A stretch of 64,000 nucleotides of DNA. Source: a virus. Numbering within the stretch: position 1 is the stretch's first letter; the number at the start of each line of letters is the position of its first letter. The position numbers and the translations under genes were made by a program. The notes under the pieces are model-generated. The model was not told where the DNA came from, did not search any database, and worked only from the letters and a program-made list of their open reading frames with translations. The stretch spans positions 132,808 to 196,807 of the IMG/VR virus record IMGVR_UViG_3300017774_005745, one strand, 5' to 3'. This document shows, one piece after another, positions 3,485-53,268 of the stretch.

Positions 3485-4711
3485 TTACTTCGTGCTGGGG
3501 TTGTGCTCGCGGTAATCCGTGGGCTCCGGCAGTGTGTTGATCTCACTCTGCGTCGGGAACCCGAGTGCCTTGAGAACTCCCGTCACCACACTCGGACTCC
3601 AGTAGTTGCGCCACACGAACTTGCCGTCTTCCATCACGAACCAGGTCGTCATTCCCACGCCGAAGATGCTGAAGACGGGGAGGTTCTCCTTGTCGAGGAA
3701 AGTTGCGATTCCCTTGAAGTAGCCTCCTCGCTCCTTGATGAGCTTCTGGATTTGAACATTGGGCAGCTCGTGTCCGAGGCCATTCACGAACTTCTTGATG
3801 GGGTCTCGCACCTGGTCTGCCGTCTTGTTCACGAGGTTGCCGATCTCCTCCGCAGAGAGGTAGTCGGTGAAGTTCGGGTGCTTCTGGTGACCAGTGAGGA
3901 AGAACCCACGAATCTGGTCGAAGTTCGGCGTGAGCGAGGACGCCTGGACGTTCGACACCGGAACCATCTGCGTGGCGTCCTTGTACGAGACACGACCGCT
4001 GACGGTACCGATGTTCACGACGTCCCTGAGAGACTCTGCCTTGTACTTCTGGAGCTGAGTCTCGCGAACGGAGTCGAGCGTTGCTCTGATGTCGGCCTTC
4101 GAGAAGACATTCCACTTCTTCCCGAACTCCAGCGTCTTCATGAGCATGTCGAGCGCCGTCTCCCCCTTCGGAGACACGTCGAGAGTGAGCTGCTTTGCCT
4201 TCGGAGCAGCACGCACAGCGGCTTTCTTGACCGTGGGAGCGCTCTTCTTGGGAGCTGACTTGGGAGCAGTCTTCGTGGCCGGAGCAGCGACGATGGTCTT
4301 CGTATCGTTCTTTTCGGACATGGTTTCCTCTTGTGAGTTTTGCTGGGGGACGACGTCTGGGATCTGAGCGAGCAGCTCTTGGCGAAGCTTTTCTGCAACT
4401 TCGGACTTACTCTTGAAGATGACCTTCATCACACCCTTCATCGTGAGGAAGCTCATGGAGTTTGCAGAGCTGGTGTCGAAATCAGGCAGAAACTTTCTGA
4501 TTTGCGCCAGGTACAGGGCGTCGAGAATGATTTTGTCATCCTTCTCGAACTCATCGGACCACGCCCCTGAGATGTGGTCAGAGAGCTTCTGACCTTCCTT
4601 GGTGTACCCCAACACATTGCCGATGACTTTGGTGGGGGTAACCCAGACACCCGAGGGCATCTGGATGAACTTGATGCTGATGACTCCGAAATTCACTTCT
4701 TTTGTACGCAT
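3485..4711 (-). CDS. BRO-N domain DNA-binding (antirepressor-like) protein
   Basis: N-terminal WV..KVIGNVLGY...FLTMKGVMKVIFKSKSEVAEKL pattern; K/A/P-rich linker. Confidence 0.65.
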   Translation of the reverse strand: MRTKEVNFGVISIKFIQMPSGVWVTPTKVIGNVLGYTKEGQKLSDHISGAWSDEFEKDDKIILDALYLAQIRKFLPDFDTSSANSMSFLTMKGVMKVIFKSKSEVAEKLRQELLAQIPDVVPQQNSQEETMSEKNDTKTIVAAPATKTAPKSAPKKSAPTVKKAAVRAAPKAKQLTLDVSPKGETALDMLMKTLEFGKKWNVFSKADIRATLDSVRETQLQKYKAESLRDVVNIGTVSGRVSYKDATQMVPVSNVQASSLTPNFDQIRGFFLTGHQKHPNFTDYLSAEEIGNLVNKTADQVRDPIKKFVNGLGHELPNVQIQKLIKERGGYFKGIATFLDKENLPVFSIFGVGMTTWFVMEDGKFVWRNYWSPSVVTGVLKALGFPTQSEINTLPEPTDYREHNPSTK

Positions 4712-4953: not shown

Positions 4954-5138
4954 TTTGTATCCCCCTCCAGGCAGCCTGCTTCGTGTTCGACGCAGAAATA
5001 ACCGGTCCCCTCACAGTCCTCGCAGTCGACTGTTTCTGGTTCTTTGCACTTACAGGAGAGGCTGGTCTCGAAGCAGCCGTCGCAGCGAGTGCCTCCTCCA
5101 TTACAGTCGAAGTGATCCTTGATGACGCACTTTTTCAT
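4785..5138 (-). CDS. Cys-rich hypothetical protein
   Basis: Multiple CxxC motifs including CEDCEGTG. Confidence 0.45.
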   Translation of the reverse strand: MKKCVIKDHFDCNGGGTRCDGCFETSLSCKCKEPETVDCEDCEGTGYFCVEHEAGCLEGDTKCIAVRKLESESKKSTQASTTSSSAPSSNRPSSKSPSKSKSGGSTGSRSSSKRTKR

Positions 5139-5449
5139 TAGTACCCCAAGAACTTCTTGCGAAGTTCGACGAACACTTCGAGTTCTTCGTTGTTTGGTTT
5201 CTGGTCAGCAAGCGCCCCTGCGAGCCTCGTGAAGTCGAGGTTGAGGAGCGTGTTGGGATTCGGAAGCTGGTTGGTCCAAATCTTCAGAAACGCATCGCAC
5301 TCTTCTTTCGAAGCACCCGCCTTGGTGAGAACACGTCGAAGGCGGATACCCCTCACAAGCTTACTGGCCTGTGCTTGCCCCTTGGCGTCGCCTGCGAGGT
5401 CCTGAGGGAAGAACTCATCAACAACCCTTCCCTGCTTGGAGTACTTCAC
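5138..5449 (-). CDS. Hypothetical protein
   Basis: ORF coupled to its neighbours. Confidence 0.6.
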   Translation of the reverse strand: MKYSKQGRVVDEFFPQDLAGDAKGQAQASKLVRGIRLRRVLTKAGASKEECDAFLKIWTNQLPNPNTLLNLDFTRLAGALADQKPNNEELEVFVELRKKFLGY

Positions 5450-43498: not shown

Positions 43499-43629
43499 GT
43501 ACTTCCTTTCGTTGTTGATACAGAAAATGGAGCCGGTTTCGAACCCGGCAGTAACACCACTTTGACTAGAGTGATGTCGACTGTGCGCGGCAACCGTGTC
43601 ATTGAGCGCCAACTATCCGCACATCCAAG

Positions 43630-44000
43630 TGGAGGTGGGGGGAATCGAACCCCCGTCCGAAAGCCTTCTGTTCTTCGATACTACGTGCGTAGCCAGTATC
43701 CCCTGGCTGGTACAACGGTTTGTCCCTCTTCTATTTACCCCGAACAAGGCTGAGGACGTCCTACGTTCAGCAGTACCCTGTGCTGTGCCTTCCAGTTACC
43801 GGGTCATCTTACTGGAAGACATCCCTGCTGCTATTACGCAGCGGCGCGGAATTCCGGTGCCGAAGCACCGATCATCCACGCCGGGAGCTCAACGTTGTCG
43901 TTGGCTTTTATTGGTTTTCCCACGAAGAATTAACGAGCTTCGTAAGCAGCTCGGCACGCATCTCGAACGTCTATGCCTCCGTCGAAGCCAGGTCACCCCC
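43630..44000 (-). ncRNA. ssrA: tmRNA (tag ANDNVELPAWMIGASAPEFRAAA)
   Basis: 5' GGGGGTGA..TTCGAC; 3' GGTTCGATTCCCCCCACCTCCA; G3:U pair; AATAAAA-GCC resume context. Confidence 0.93.
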
Positions 44001-45353: not shown

Positions 45354-45354
45354 G

Positions 45355-45425
45355 TGCTCCCGACGGGAATTGAACCCGTGCCTCACCCTTACCAAGGGCG
45401 TGCTCGACCTTCGAGCTACAAGAGC
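45355..45425 (-). tRNA. tRNA-Thr(GGT)
   Basis: Cloverleaf, loop TTGGTAA. Confidence 0.9.
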
Positions 45426-45489
45426 AAAGTGGCGACCCCCAGGTATCCTCTGAGGGCCGCCGATAGTTTCGTTGGAAGAAACCGTTTCG

Positions 45490-45642
45490 CTGTCTTTGAG
45501 ACCGACGCTAAGACTTCCTTTTAGCTCTTAATCCCCACGCCTTATCATTGGGCCACTCGACCACATGGAGGTCGAGACCGGAATCAAACCAGTATCTTGG
45601 GGTGCATACGGAAGTAACTTAATTCGGAGTCTCGTTACACAG
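45490..45642 (-). ncRNA. Circularly permuted tRNA-like RNA #2 (YrlA-like)
   Basis: T-arm ACTGG-TTTGATT-CCGGT, acceptor hairpin CTCGACC-TCCATGT-GGTCGAG, D-arm, long closing stem. Confidence 0.75.
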
Positions 45643-45673
45643 AAAGCTTGAGCTTGGAGCTACACCCATGAGT

Positions 45674-45774
45674 GTCCAATACACGCTGCTTTGCCTCACC
45701 AGTTGGGCTACCTGGCCGTAATAGGCCAGGGGAAGAGTCGAACTTCCATCTTTAGCAGAGTGTGGTTAACGGAC
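45674..45774 (-). ncRNA. Circularly permuted tRNA-like RNA #1 (YrlA-like)
   Basis: T-arm GGAAG-TTCGACT-CTTCC, acceptor hairpin CCTGGCC-TATTAC-GGCCAGG, D-arm with GG, closing stem GTCCG/TGGAC. Confidence 0.75.
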
Positions 45775-45776
45775 GT

Positions 45777-45812
45777 AAGCTTGAGACTTTGAACTTCAGC
45801 TTGAGCTTGTGC
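45777..45812 (-). repeat. AAGCTC/AAGCTG/AAGTTC/AAGCTT hexamer array (again at ~45643-45655)
   Basis: AAGCTCAAGCTGAAGTTCAAAGTCTCAAGCTT. Confidence 0.6.
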
Positions 45813-45840
45813 TCCAAATCTTTAGAGGACTACCGTCGGC

Positions 45841-46578
45841 TCAGGGAGCAAAGATGAGTTCGACGATGACACCAGTCGCAGCATCGACAACATCTGCCTG
45901 GTTTGCCTCTTCACGAGCAACCTTGACCGCTCGTTGCATCTTCTCGACTCTCTCCTGGAGCTGCTTCTTCCTGTCTGCTGGAATGGCTCCGGAGAAGTGA
46001 ATGGTCTTCCACGTCCCGACTGTGATGTCTTCGGTGACCTTGACCGTCTGTGCTGGGTGTTCCTTGGTCGGTGGAACGATGACTTTGTAGTCTTCCACCT
46101 TCTTGGTCTTGATGGTCTCCACAGGCTCAGAGCGGTACAACCCCTGTCCTTCATCGAACTGCCACACGGTATCCTGAGGAAGCGTGGGGAGCTTGCCGAT
46201 GAACTCTGCGATGGAGACGAGCTTCTTCTCCAGCCACAGCAGGTGGGTCGCAGGGATGTCCTTTGCGAGAATCTGTCCATCGACAGTGATGTCTGCCACT
46301 GCCGAGCAGTTCGTGGAGTCCTTGACCGCCGTGATGTTGAAGATTTCCTTCATCAGCGCGACAGTCGTGGAGATAGCTTCCTCCACCTTGACCGTGACTT
46401 TCTTCGACTCAGACGGGAGCTTCTCTCCGCTGTCGTCCTTCGGCTGGTACGTGCGAGAGAGACCGATGACCAGCTCGGGCTTCTGCACGTTGCGGTAGAG
46501 TTCCGTGAACTGGTCCTCCCGCTTTCCCTTGACCGTCTTCTCGATGGCCAGGATTTGGTTCAGCTTCTTGCCAGCCAT
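45841..46578 (-). CDS. Conserved protein, DUF7873-like (KLNQI.A.EK...SRTYQP.D..GE.LP.E)
   Basis: Family recalled from bacterial genomes; not searched. Confidence 0.75.
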   Translation of the reverse strand: MAGKKLNQILAIEKTVKGKREDQFTELYRNVQKPELVIGLSRTYQPKDDSGEKLPSESKKVTVKVEEAISTTVALMKEIFNITAVKDSTNCSAVADITVDGQILAKDIPATHLLWLEKKLVSIAEFIGKLPTLPQDTVWQFDEGQGLYRSEPVETIKTKKVEDYKVIVPPTKEHPAQTVKVTEDITVGTWKTIHFSGAIPADRKKQLQERVEKMQRAVKVAREEANQADVVDAATGVIVELIFAP

Positions 46579-46581
46579 GGC

Positions 46582-46767
46582 TTACAGGTCCGATGCACGA
46601 AGCGTCGAACGGTCGTTCGCCTTCGCACGAGCCGCTGCGTTCTTGATGAGGTTGTGAACGTACGCGTTCAGACCCTCGACGAACTCGTCACCCGAGCGCA
46701 TCTCCAGCTCCTTCACGACGTCCTTGACCTTCGAAACAACGATGACCGATTCCAGTTCCTTCGCCAT
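46582..46767 (-). CDS. Bacterial-type histone-fold protein (Bd0055/HBb-like)
   Basis: IVVSKVK..VK...MRS...F.E.L...V..LI..A..RAKAN.R.TLRA.DL with the RxTxxxxD signature; RBS GAGGAG. Confidence 0.85.
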   Translation of the reverse strand: MAKELESVIVVSKVKDVVKELEMRSGDEFVEGLNAYVHNLIKNAAARAKANDRSTLRASDL

Positions 46768-47141
46768 TGTGACTTCTCCTCAGTGTGAGTGTTGGACTGC
46801 TACTGATAAACCATCCGCCGAGTTCGTCTAGCCGGAATGTCTTCGGCAGTACTTGGTCTTACGGCATTGGTCTTTCGACCGCCTTTACATGAACGAGTTC
46901 CGAAGAAGAGCAATGTCCTACTAAAGTAGCAGACATCACCAGGTCTTAGAGCGACTAAGTCCCGTGTTTCCGATTTCTACCGTCCGTCTGGAGTTTCCTC
47001 CAGGTGTGGGGGTAATTATCTCGGACCACTCCTCGTAACATGAACCTTCCATTCGCAACCATGGATGAATCGGAAGGGTTTGCCCGACCAGGCTTCAAGG
47101 AAAGTTACTTTGTCTCGAACTCAGCAGACAGACTTGTTCGC

Positions 47142-50290: not shown

Positions 50291-50433
50291 GAAGTTCCGA
50301 GTGTACAACGCGTTCGTTTTATGAGGCTGCTGCTCTACCACTGAGCTACGTAGGTCAGGGACCTACGGCAGGATTCGAACCTGCGACCCGCAGCGTGACG
50401 TTTTGCGTGTGTGCGCTGTACTGCCGGAACTTC
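50291..50433 (-). ncRNA. Circularly permuted tRNA-like RNA #3, retains CTCATAA loop
   Basis: T-arm GCAGG-TTCGAAT-CCTGC, hairpin CGTAGGT-CCCTG-ACCTACG, D-arm GCTC-AGTGGTA-GAGC, closing stem GAAGTTCCG/CGGAACTTC. Confidence 0.85.
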
Positions 50434-53114: not shown

Positions 53115-53268
53115 TGATCCACCCGAGTGAGCAATCCGTAGGTCTCTTTCGAGACGGCTTAATAGGCCGGTGCCTTACCAGTTAGGCTACCTCCTCATAT
53201 GTGAGGAGGGTTGGATTCGAACCAACATAAGACGATTGCGTGTGAGGACTGTTCGGCCGGGTGAATCA
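53115..53268 (-). ncRNA. Circularly permuted tRNA-like RNA #4, retains an anticodon arm (ATT)
   Basis: T-arm GTTGG-TTCGAAT-CCAAC, hairpin CCTCCTC-ACATAT-GAGGAGG, D-arm, CCGGC-CTATTAA-GCCGT, 12-bp closing stem. Confidence 0.85.

What the first reader, a model, noticed from the sequence alone, without database searches (positions are those of the whole stretch)
45490..46767. Candidate system: histone, DUF7873-like gene and two tandem permuted tRNA-like RNAs each preceded by an AAGCTC array
Seen: directly behind the 245-aa conserved gene are two units. Each reads T-arm, then acceptor 3' strand, a short loop, acceptor 5' strand, then D-arm, all closed by a long stem, which is a tRNA opened in the anticodon arm and sealed at the acceptor end. 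Each unit is preceded by AAGCTCAAGCT hexamers (KLKL in one frame, SSS in another). In unit #2 the sealing loop is T-CCA-TGT, placing discriminator plus CCA exactly where a mature 3' end would lie. Known: this permuted order is the YrlA (Y RNA-like) architecture that partners Ro60/TROVE proteins. No TROVE gene is visible in this window. Inference: the DUF7873-like protein may be an uncharacterised partner of these RNAs, with the hexamer array as its binding site, in a transcript that also carries a histone.
Basis: partly seen in the sequence, partly recalled or inferred. Interest (0 to 1): 0.9.

Follow-up and report, generated by a model that had tools for sequence, protein, structure and literature searches.

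The report
Twin tRNA-mimic RNA paired with DUF7873
This phage carries a gene of unknown function (DUF7873) followed by one folded RNA of about 385 bases with two back-to-front tRNA look-alikes, and the same gene-RNA pair recurs in hundreds of bacteria and phages, which points to an undescribed RNA-protein partnership built on tRNA mimicry.

Summary
Behind the DUF7873 gene (45841-46578, minus) lie two permuted tRNA-like modules (45659-45776 and 45511-45614). Each is preceded by a six-base CU-periodic tract. Unit 2 has T-CCA directly after its acceptor 3' strand.

They are the two heads of one ncRNA of about 385 nt (about 45431-45815). With my own covariance model, 166 of 172 DUF7873 loci from phages, IMG/VR contigs and five or more bacterial phyla carry such modules directly downstream on the gene strand, usually two. 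Stems covary strongly, and so does the tertiary 19:56 elbow pair.

In 121 genomes of one actinobacterial family, the RNA (75) and the protein (76) occupy the same 75 genomes.

It is built like YrlA but is not a YrlA: it scores 26-35 bits against a threshold of 69, lacks the Rsr motif, and has no TROVE gene in the phage or next to any cassette.

The 61-aa protein has a histone fold but is not a conserved member of the cassette.

DUF7873 has no recognisable fold relative. Binding, transcription and processing remain untested.

This scan has noted the same cassette before on other DNA. I found nothing about it in the searchable literature or in Rfam 15.

The parts
46582..46767 (-). 61-aa histone-fold (DUF1931/bacterial-histone-like) gene. 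Its stop lies 3 nt before the DUF7873 start. It is specific to this phage and is not a conserved member of the cassette.
   Evidence: ORF. phmmer against PDB: 9qt0 E 1.6e-6, 8fvx (Bd0055 class) E 3.7e-3. No homologue in 172 other DUF7873 loci and none in the closest relative L101.
45841..46578 (-). DUF7873 protein gene (245 aa), the conserved protein partner.
   Evidence: Pfam PF25283, 299.5 bits. 1149 homologue clusters. AF2 model with pLDDT 82: four long helices plus long beta hairpins. No convincing fold match.
45775..45810 (-). 5' hexamer tract (CUCAAG CUGAAG UUCAAA (GU)CUCAAG CUUA) in front of head 1. It corresponds to the family consensus AAGCUGA-AxCUGAA-GCUxAxx-CUGA.
   Evidence: Sequence. 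Alignment A6 columns 31-60. Periodicity statistics.
45659..45776 (-). tRNA-mimic head 1 with its closing stem. The core is 45683-45760: T-arm GGAAG/TTCGACT/CTTCC, sealed acceptor CCTGGCC-TATTAC-GGCCAGG, and the D-arm GCCCAACTGGTGAGGC typical of head 1.
   Evidence: Rfam YrlA 34.7 bits. Own model R1 52.2 bits, E 2e-12. Fold.
45615..45663 (-). Second hexamer tract (GCUCCA AGCUCA AGCUUU) and the linker that forms the 5' strand of head 2's closing stem.
   Evidence: Sequence. Alignments A6 and A8. Linker model R2.
45511..45614 (-). tRNA-mimic head 2 with its closing stem. The core is 45529-45606: T-arm ACTGG/TTTGATT/CCGGT and sealed acceptor CTCGACC-T-CCA-TGT-GGTCGAG. The D-loop carries GA instead of GG, which matches U56 in the T-loop.
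   Evidence: Rfam YrlA 26.4 bits. R1 69.3 bits, E 3e-17. 19:56 covariation.
45431..45510 (-). 3' strand of head 2's outer stem (UCUUAGCGUCGGUCUC, the counterpart of the family's CUUAAACGUG..GGCGUG block) and a terminal terminator-like hairpin (45431-45461).
   Evidence: Alignment A6. Terminator-like site.
45354..45425 (-). Ordinary tRNA-Thr(GGU) that follows the RNA. It is a neighbour and not part of the cassette.
   Evidence: ARAGORN. Rfam tRNA 59.2 bits.

Best explanation
The two modules are the two heads of a single non-coding RNA of about 385 nt. The layout is: hexamer tract, tRNA-mimic head 1, hexamer tract and linker, tRNA-mimic head 2, conserved 3' strand, terminal hairpin. This RNA forms an obligate genetic pair with the DUF7873 protein.

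Shown here: each head keeps a tRNA elbow (T-loop/D-loop, including the 19:56 pair) and a 7-bp acceptor stem sealed by a loop that starts with a discriminator base and often with CCA. The anticodon arm is replaced by a long stem with conserved internal loops. The RNA and the gene co-occur almost perfectly in bacteria and phages.

Inferred: DUF7873, probably as an oligomer, binds this RNA at the hexamer tracts and/or at the conserved internal loop of head 2's stem. This would give a Ro60-independent particle in the style of Ro60-Y RNA. The heads would be recognised, and possibly opened, by tRNA enzymes (RNase P at the acceptor 5' end; 3' trimming and CCA addition), as shown for M. smegmatis YrlA. 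Through them the particle would dock onto some part of the tRNA or translation machinery.

In this phage the cassette sits in the tRNA/tmRNA region and would serve the same cellular role during infection.
For: Anatomy.

Conserved synteny: YrlA-like hits lie directly behind DUF7873 in Gordonia, Arthrobacter, Rhizobium, Ralstonia and Klebsiella phages. In six whole phage genomes the best or only hit is that one. Own model R1 finds modules downstream on the gene strand in all 12 annotated phage loci, 78 of 80 IMG/VR loci and 76 of 80 bacterial loci. In 98 of 125 tabulated loci there are two modules, with the first core starting a median 80 nt after the stop and a median gap of 71 nt. All 136 hits in 648 kb of bacterial loci lie downstream of the gene.

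Structure under selection: 91.7% of cells are paired, against 65.5% in shuffles and 41-51% when slid. 613 cells carry double changes, against 200 in shuffles. T-arm and acceptor stems are 99.5-99.7% paired. RNAalifold on 59 loci recovers both heads and head 2's long stem with covariation. Tertiary pair 19:56: GG/C in 177 modules, GA/U in 2, GC/G in 1.

Reciprocity: in 121 genomes of one family, the linker model R2 hits 75 genomes and DUF7873 hits 76. The 75 are the same genomes, each with one copy, and the RNA lies about 130-270 nt downstream. The odd one out is a 64-aa fragment.

Trans-acting RNA: in Herpetosiphon the RNA is 1.8 Mb from the gene and has its own -10 box and intrinsic terminator. 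In one virus it lies 8 kb away behind a perfect TTGACA-17-TATACT promoter. In a Microcoleus phage an IS element separates the gene from the RNA.

Independence from Ro60: there is no TROVE in the phage, none beside any cassette, and none at all in 13 of 36 carrier genomes. The Rsr motif is absent.

Precedent for processing: M. smegmatis YrlA, which has a 7-bp acceptor stem, is cut by RNase P and receives CCA (PMC4201824). N-CCA follows the acceptor 3' strand in 34 of 98 head 1 and 30 of 98 head 2 modules.
Against: There is no datum on binding, and no clean datum on transcription or RNA ends. The runs I could lay were contigs only, and their RNA status is doubtful.

The DUF7873 model resembles no known RNA-binding fold, so an RNA-binding role rests on gene context alone.

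23 of 36 carrier genomes do hold a TROVE-like gene elsewhere, so a functional link to Ro60 is not excluded.

Pairing between the two hexamer tracts fits in register (79% of cells) but shows no covariation beyond shuffles, so their state, helix or single strand, is unresolved.

A Streptomyces subclade has replaced head 1 by a plain hairpin, so the twin-head design is not essential everywhere.

An earlier check within this scan priced the 'protein binds RNA' reading at only 22/100.
Confidence: 0.55

Rival explanations
1. The RNAs are ordinary Y RNAs of the YrlA class that work with the host's Ro60/Rsr. DUF7873 would be merely a conserved neighbour, or an accessory of that system.
For: The build is the same as YrlA, and the YrlA model aligns end to end. 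Tandem Y RNAs from one precursor are known beside rsr (PMC4201824). 23 of 36 carrier genomes have a TROVE-like gene somewhere.
Against: Scores of 26-37 bits lie far below the gathering score of 69. The GNCGAAN0-1G motif is absent from this window. It occurs in 3% of head 1 flanks, which is the chance level, and in 16% of head 2 linkers. TROVE is never adjacent and is absent from 13 of 36 carrier genomes and from the phage. Presence and absence track DUF7873 exactly.
Confidence: 0.12
2. The RNA acts on DUF7873 expression and is not a partner in a particle. It could be a 3'-UTR element whose tRNA-like heads recruit RNase P to define and stabilise the mRNA 3' end, or an RNA regulator or antidote of the protein.
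For: The RNA lies 50-100 nt behind the stop codon on the same strand in more than 95% of loci. There is usually no clear U-tract terminator between gene and RNA. tRNA-like 3' processing signals are a known device (general knowledge).
Against: The RNA is unlinked from the gene and has its own promoter and terminator in Herpetosiphon and in one virus. It survives separation by an IS element. About 330 nt of conserved sequence, two different heads with distinct discriminator bases, and covarying long stems are far more than a processing signal needs.
Confidence: 0.15
3. The modules are working permuted (split) tRNA genes, or a two-piece tmRNA-like RNA that is cut, given CCA, charged and used on the ribosome.
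For: The gene order is that of permuted tRNA and permuted tmRNA genes. There is a 7-bp acceptor stem with an encoded discriminator plus CCA. Partial sub-threshold hits to tmRNA models fall on the heads. The location is among phage tRNA genes.
Against: There is no anticodon loop: the anticodon stem runs on into a conserved long stem. CCA is encoded in only about a third of heads. G3:U70, the Ala identity pair of tmRNA, occurs in 5 of 126 heads (pair 42-150). No conserved reading frame or stop codon is seen in the linker (reading of A6). The phage has no RtcB and already has a full tmRNA at 43627-44000. Head 1 is dispensable in a Streptomyces subclade.
Confidence: 0.07
4. The RNA is a decoy. Its heads soak up enzymes or toxins that attack the tRNA elbow or acceptor end (nucleotidyltransferase, acetyltransferase or nuclease toxins, or RNase P), and DUF7873 helps or guards it. 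In phages this would be counter-defence.
For: The heads keep exactly the parts of tRNA that such enzymes read and lack the anticodon. The cassette is carried by many large phages next to their tRNA sets.
Against: In bacteria the cassette is single-copy, lies among housekeeping-type neighbours and is not in recognisable defence islands. There is no PADLOC hit. It is present in 62% of sampled species of one family, which fits a cellular housekeeping or stress role better.
Confidence: 0.1

Closest known systems
YrlA (Y RNA-like A, Rfam RF02553) with Ro60/Rsr, especially the M. smegmatis type (Chen et al. 2014, PMC4201824; structure preprint 10.1101/312249)
   Same: Both have a tRNA-mimic domain in permuted order (T-arm, loop-sealed acceptor stem, D-arm) on a long stem that replaces the anticodon arm. 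Both have a 7-bp acceptor that in M. smegmatis is cut by RNase P and extended with CCA. Two RNAs lie in tandem in one precursor. Both are encoded next to a dedicated protein gene and occur in bacteria and phages.
   Different: The partner gene is DUF7873, not a TROVE protein. The Rfam score is half the threshold or less. The GNCGAAN0-1G Rsr motif is missing. Both heads are full tRNA mimics joined in one conserved RNA of about 330-400 nt. That RNA has CU-periodic hexamer tracts and its own conserved internal loop (GAUCGAC / CUUAAACGUG in most members; AAUUAAG / CUUAGCGUC in this phage clade). The RNA lies downstream of its gene.
Two-piece (circularly permuted) tmRNA with SmpB
   Same: The gene order is permuted, with T-arm, acceptor 3' strand and CCA upstream of the acceptor 5' strand. 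The pieces would be held together by base pairing after processing. The sequence following the acceptor 5' strand of head 1 occupies the place of the tmRNA tag region. Both have a small dedicated protein partner.
   Different: There is no G3:U70, no resume codon, no tag frame or stop, and no pseudoknot set. DUF7873 is unrelated to SmpB by Pfam. The phage has a separate canonical tmRNA.
Permuted tRNA genes of red and green algae (my own recollection; not checked in a paper here)
   Same: The 3' half is encoded upstream of the 5' half, with the acceptor ends joined by a short spacer.
   Different: Those genes yield real tRNAs with anticodon loops after circularisation at a bulge-helix-bulge site by the eukaryal/archaeal splicing machinery. 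Here there is no anticodon loop and no such site, and the hosts lack that machinery.
   Same: The idea that tRNA-like Y-type RNAs may serve as platforms for proteins other than Ro60.
   Different: I could not read that paper because it is not held. Whether it names this protein family or this RNA is therefore unverified.

Membership tests
YrlA (Rfam RF02553) | Covariance-model score at or above the curated gathering score (69 bits) | tested here: not met
   34.7 and 26.4 bits in the window. 22-38 bits in relatives from phages and bacteria.
YrlA (Rfam RF02553) | tRNA-like domain: T-arm, D-arm and acceptor-like stem closed by a loop, on a long stem | tested here: met
   Covariation. 19:56 tertiary pair.
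YrlA (Rfam RF02553) | GNCGAAN0-1G motif near the 5' end (likely Rsr contact; PMC4201824) | tested here: not met
   Absent from both units of the window. Found in 3/99 head 1 flanks (chance 4%) and 16/99 head 2 linkers.
YrlA (Rfam RF02553) | Encoded within about 4 kb of a Ro60/TROVE gene on the same strand (criterion of Chen et al. 2014) | tested here: not met
   No TROVE in the complete phage. None next to the cassette in 36 bacterial genomes, and 13 of those have none at all. No TROVE among 102 neighbouring proteins.
YrlA (Rfam RF02553) | Bound by Rsr in vivo | not testable with these tools
   Needs immunoprecipitation.
DUF7873 (Pfam PF25283) | Whole-protein score above the curated cut-off (27 bits) over the full profile | tested here: met
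   299.5 bits, profile positions 2-234 of 244. All invariant columns of a 35-sequence alignment are present.
tRNA gene (normal or permuted) | Anticodon stem closed by a 7-nt anticodon loop, or ends that can be joined to give one | tested here: not met
   The anticodon stem continues into a conserved, covarying long stem. ARAGORN and the Rfam tRNA model do not call the units.
tmRNA (one- or two-piece) | G3:U70 alanine identity pair in the acceptor stem | tested here: not met
   U:G at the third acceptor pair in 5 of 126 distinct heads (columns 42-150). The window heads have C3-G70 and U3-A70.
tmRNA (one- or two-piece) | Tag reading frame with resume codon and stop; match to tmRNA covariance models | tested here: inconclusive
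   Only partial matches of 11-25 bits to tmRNA models, falling over the heads. No conserved frame or stop is seen by eye in alignment A6. No formal coding test was run.
Bacterial histone / DUF1931 fold (the 61-aa protein) | Sequence similarity to solved members | tested here: met
   phmmer: 9qt0 (DUF1931) E 1.6e-6 over residues 4-60; 8cmp and 8fvx (CBFD_NFYB_HMF bacterial histones) E 3e-3. No Pfam hit at E below 0.07.

The most novel reading that the evidence does not exclude
DUF7873 and the twin-headed RNA form a widespread, Ro60-independent ribonucleoprotein. A DUF7873 oligomer would read the six-base repeat track, one repeat per subunit as TRAP-type proteins do. The two different tRNA-mimic heads would be opened by RNase P and finished with CCA, and would then present tRNA-like ends to the translation or tRNA-maturation machinery. 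This would be a new class of tRNA-mimic particle, present in most Streptomyces-like species sampled and borrowed by large phages.
Probability: 0.35. Interest if true: 0.88.

Novelty: new variant of a known kind. Interest (0 to 1): 0.8.

Why it matters
If the pairing is functional, this is a second major family of bacterial tRNA-mimic RNA-protein particles beside Ro60-Y RNA.

- The RNA is not in Rfam 15, and the protein has no known fold relative.
- The cassette was found in at least 585 bacterial genome stretches from one-per-species collections and in more than 200 viral contigs.
- It occurs in 62% of the sampled species of an antibiotic-producing actinobacterial family, where genetics is easy.

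It gives a directly testable handle on three questions: what tRNA mimicry is used for outside translation; why large phages carry such RNAs among their tRNA genes; and what DUF7873 does.

It also corrects annotations. Several phage records annotate small ORFs or a 'suppressor tRNA' over this RNA.

Tried and rejected
- **Bacterial contexts by exact protein.** I used the search for related loci and the genome search instead.
- **Function of DUF7873.** Nothing came from Foldseek against PDB (no hit at E 1e-3 or better) or VIA-align wide (best Z 8.6, only generic helical bundles). BFVD gave one weak match (E 1.6e-4, TM 0.17) with no informative description. A profile against PDB sequences, the ESM Atlas (only DUF7873 clusters), PHROGs, NCBIfam and PADLOC also gave nothing.
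- **Literature.** 'DUF7873' gave 0 papers. Searches on YrlA plus phage and on tRNA-like plus Streptomyces gave nothing on this cassette.
- **Expression.** The metatranscriptome X6 laid nothing. X22 (RNA status only a guess) holds just 45386-45605, with one mismatch. X13 is a cDNA-labelled library that may be DNA. There, a relative's 110-nt contig over the linker has depth 887, against 35 and 16 for its neighbours. These are weak hints only, and conserved sequence shared by relatives could inflate that depth.
- **Sorangium hit rejected.** I first took a third model hit near the Sorangium TROVE gene for a canonical YrlA. It is the junction of two identical tandem tRNA genes.
- **Hexamer tracts as the two strands of one helix.** They fit in register (79% paired against 18-33% when slid), but covariation does not exceed shuffles, and the CUGA to CUCA changes are uncompensated. 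The result is inconclusive.
- **Histone as a cassette member.** Rejected.
- **Conserved protein neighbours in bacteria.** None was found.
- Two genome-search runs failed on a wrong 'of' argument and were repeated correctly.
Full report
**What is in the window.** The window is the last 64 kb of a complete 196.8-kb phage record with direct terminal repeats. It is rich in tRNA genes (28 tRNAs and a tmRNA, all on the minus strand) and carries rIIA/rIIB. On the minus strand the order is:
- a 61-aa ORF (46582-46767);
- three bases later, a 245-aa ORF (45841-46578);
- 415 ORF-free bases;
- tRNA-Thr (45354-45425).

The 245-aa protein is a full-length DUF7873 (PF25283, 299.5 bits). The 61-aa protein matches solved DUF1931 and bacterial-histone chains (9qt0 E 1.6e-6; 8fvx E 3.7e-3), so the 'histone' label holds at the level of fold family.

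**The observation.** Unit 1 (45659-45776) has T-arm GGAAG/TTCGACT/CTTCC, then acceptor CCTGGCC, loop TATTAC, GGCCAGG and a D-arm. Unit 2 (45511-45614) has T-arm ACTGG/TTTGATT/CCGGT, then CTCGACC, T-CCA-TGT, GGTCGAG and a D-arm. Each is closed by a longer stem in the minimum-energy fold. The Rfam YrlA model aligns over its whole length to both, at 34.7 and 26.4 bits. This is significant for the 600 bases searched but far under the gathering score of 69. Each unit is preceded by a tract of six-base repeats that begin with CU or YU. The phage has no TROVE and no RtcB gene.

**Is the link to DUF7873 real?** tblastn found DUF7873 in 75 phage records infecting Actinobacteria, Cyanobacteria and Proteobacteria.
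- In all 12 records inspected, the gene is followed by 250-580 unannotated bases.
- Rfam's YrlA model hits that gap in seven of eleven.
- In six whole phage genomes of 67-307 kb, the best hit is the one behind DUF7873, and in four of them it is the only hit.

I then built a covariance model (R1) of the permuted core from 11 modules.
- It finds modules on the gene strand directly downstream in all 12 annotated phage loci. In the Microcoleus phage they lie behind an inserted HEARO/IscB element.
- It finds them in 78 of 80 IMG/VR loci and 76 of 80 bacterial loci.
- In the bacterial loci, all 136 hits in 648 kb lie behind the gene.
- Two modules are the rule: 98 of 125 tabulated loci. The first core starts a median 80 nt after the stop, and the gap between cores has a median of 71 nt.
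- The exceptions are informative. One contig is too short. In two viral loci the pair lies 8.4 kb further on, behind a perfect TTGACA-17-TATACT promoter. Of the three Herpetosiphon loci, whole-genome searches of two species show the pair sitting 1.8 Mb from the gene or on another contig. In H. aurantiacus it lies between a glycosyltransferase gene and a chloride-channel gene, with its own TACAAT box and an intrinsic terminator.

So the RNA can be an independent, trans-encoded gene.

**Reciprocal test.** I built a sequence model (R2) of the family-specific stretch from the D-arm of head 1 through the linker. It was run over 121 genomes sampled from the family of one carrier, and PF25283 was run over the same 121 genomes.
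- The RNA is in 75 genomes and the protein in 76.
- The 75 are the same genomes, always with one copy each, and the RNA lies about 130-270 nt downstream on the same strand.
- The single protein-only genome has just a 64-residue fragment.
- 45 genomes have neither.

Neighbouring genes in bacteria are heterogeneous and look like housekeeping genes. tRNA genes are absent from the four bacterial loci scanned. The association is therefore not a by-product of phage tRNA clusters.

**The RNA is under structural selection.** On 126 distinct bacterial modules, 91.7% of cells pair, against 65.5% in shuffles and 41-51% when slid. There are 613 doubly changed cells, against 200 in shuffles. The T-arm and acceptor stems are 99.5-99.7% paired, with many compensatory changes. 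RNAalifold on 59 full-length loci recovers both T-arms, both 7-bp acceptor hairpins and both D-arms. It also recovers a two-part long stem closing head 2 that covaries strongly. That stem frames a conserved internal loop, GAUCGAC opposite CUUAAACGUG. In this phage and its closest relative the loop reads AAUUAAG opposite CUUAGCGUC.

The tertiary elbow pair covaries too. 177 modules have C56 with GG in the D-loop. The only two with U56 (unit 2 here and its closest relative) have GA. One module with G56 has GC. This explains unit 2's odd T- and D-loops and argues for a true L-shaped fold.

The two heads are distinct paralogues. Head 1 has discriminator A in 82 of 98 cases and an almost invariant D-arm, UAGCCCAA..GGYAGAGGC. 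Head 2 has U or G in 90 of 98. N-CCA follows the acceptor in about a third of each.

**The hexamer tracts.** They are a family feature, with consensus C-U-(G/C/U)-A-R-N. Three or more CU dinucleotides in exact six-base register occur in 43% of 5' flanks and 40% of linkers. The figures are 0.4-1.5% in shuffles and 0% in 3' flanks. The two tracts can pair with each other in register (79% of cells). However, covariation does not exceed shuffles, and frequent CUGA to CUCA changes are uncompensated. I therefore cannot say whether they form a periodically interrupted helix or act as single-stranded repeats. In about a fifth of the Streptomyces-family cassettes, head 1 is replaced by a plain hairpin, while the tracts, the linker and head 2 remain (partial R2 hits; folds). 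The tracts and head 2's stem are thus the most constant RNA parts.

**What it is not.**
- *Not a YrlA by that family's own criteria.* The score is too low and the GNCGAAN0-1G motif is absent: none in the window, 3% of head 1 flanks (chance level) and 16% of head 2 linkers. No Ro60 gene lies nearby. 13 of 36 carrier genomes lack any TROVE match, and in the others it lies elsewhere.
- *Not a tRNA gene, whole or split.* There is no anticodon loop, and the stem continues as a conserved helix.
- *Not tmRNA-like in function.* There is no G3:U70 (5 of 126 heads) and no conserved frame, and the phage has a normal tmRNA.
- *The histone-fold gene is not part of the unit.* No homologue lies within 3-4 kb of DUF7873 in 172 other loci. 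The closest relative (71% identical DUF7873) has other small genes there. The 'histone H3-like' gene upstream in a Pseudanabaena phage shows no similarity.

**Mechanism.** What is shown is an obligate genetic pairing between DUF7873 and a structured, twin-headed tRNA mimic that can act in trans. The rest is inferred.
- I consider it most likely (0.55) that DUF7873 binds the RNA, by analogy with Ro60-Y RNA.
- The tracts or the conserved internal loop would then be the binding site.
- The physiological role is unknown.

The AlphaFold model of DUF7873 (pLDDT 82; four long helices with long beta hairpins) has no convincing relative among solved or viral predicted structures, so it offers no help. 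Read data gave only weak hints of an abundant RNA over the linker and head 2.

**Prior knowledge.** Rfam 15 has no family for this RNA other than the sub-threshold YrlA resemblance. 'DUF7873' occurs in no searchable paper. The YrlA and jumbo-phage papers I read speak only of Ro60/TROVE partners. This scan has flagged the same cassette on other DNA many times, and its follow-up agents reached the same reading. One later check accepted the observation but priced the binding claim at 22/100, partly because a crude word-pattern test found the RNA beside only 17.8% of genes. My covariance-model tests (166 of 172 loci; 75 of 76 genomes) speak clearly for the pairing as a rule. The binding claim remains untested.

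Noticed in passing
window 50323-50397 and 53162-53237 (minus strand): Two further single permuted tRNA-mimic modules in the same phage score 51.0 and 55.0 bits with my model R1. They are not next to DUF7873. Other agents of the scan have reported on them.
   Followed up: no
window 43627-44000 (minus strand): Phage tmRNA (Rfam 140 bits) with an unusually long 23-aa tag, ANDNVELPAWMIGASAPEFRAAA. The related viral contig L102 has a similar tag that starts with the same ANDNVELPA.
   Followed up: no
window 46780-47135: About 350 ORF-free bases lie between rIIB and the histone-fold gene. No Rfam family reaches threshold there.
   Followed up: no
L017 (Microcoleus phage My-WqHQDG) 3441-4952: A HEARO RNA (129 bits) plus a 425-aa ORF is inserted exactly between the DUF7873 gene and its twin RNA, which follows at 5074-5392. 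By my reading this is an IscB-type IS element.
   Followed up: partly
L019 (Klebsiella phage vB_KpM_FBKp24) 3352-3652: The record's 'tRNA-OTHER / Sup-TTA' feature (3512-3591) overlaps head 2 of the twin RNA (R1 81.7 bits at 3551-3652). It is probably a mis-call of the tRNA mimic and not a suppressor tRNA. Small 'hypothetical protein' ORFs annotated over the RNA in Gordonia phage Fryberger, Vibrio phage D517 and Pseudanabaena phage PA-SR01 are probably spurious too.
   Followed up: partly
L042, L049 and about 14 of 75 genomes: A Streptomyces-family subclade has lost head 1. A plain GC-rich hairpin sits between the two hexamer tracts, while the linker, head 2 and DUF7873 are kept.
   Followed up: partly
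L189 (Sorangium sp. So ce1128, G019:C1:10741500-10747500): The TROVE/Ro60 gene of this genome lies amid at least 13 tRNA genes, including identical tandem copies. The junction of those copies mimics a permuted module and fools both YrlA-type models.
   Followed up: partly
G014 (Herpetosiphon aurantiacus) and G030 (Myxococcus xanthus AM003): Several additional single R1 hits (40-55 bits) are scattered in these genomes away from DUF7873. I did not inspect them; they could be further tRNA mimics or tandem-tRNA junctions.
   Followed up: no
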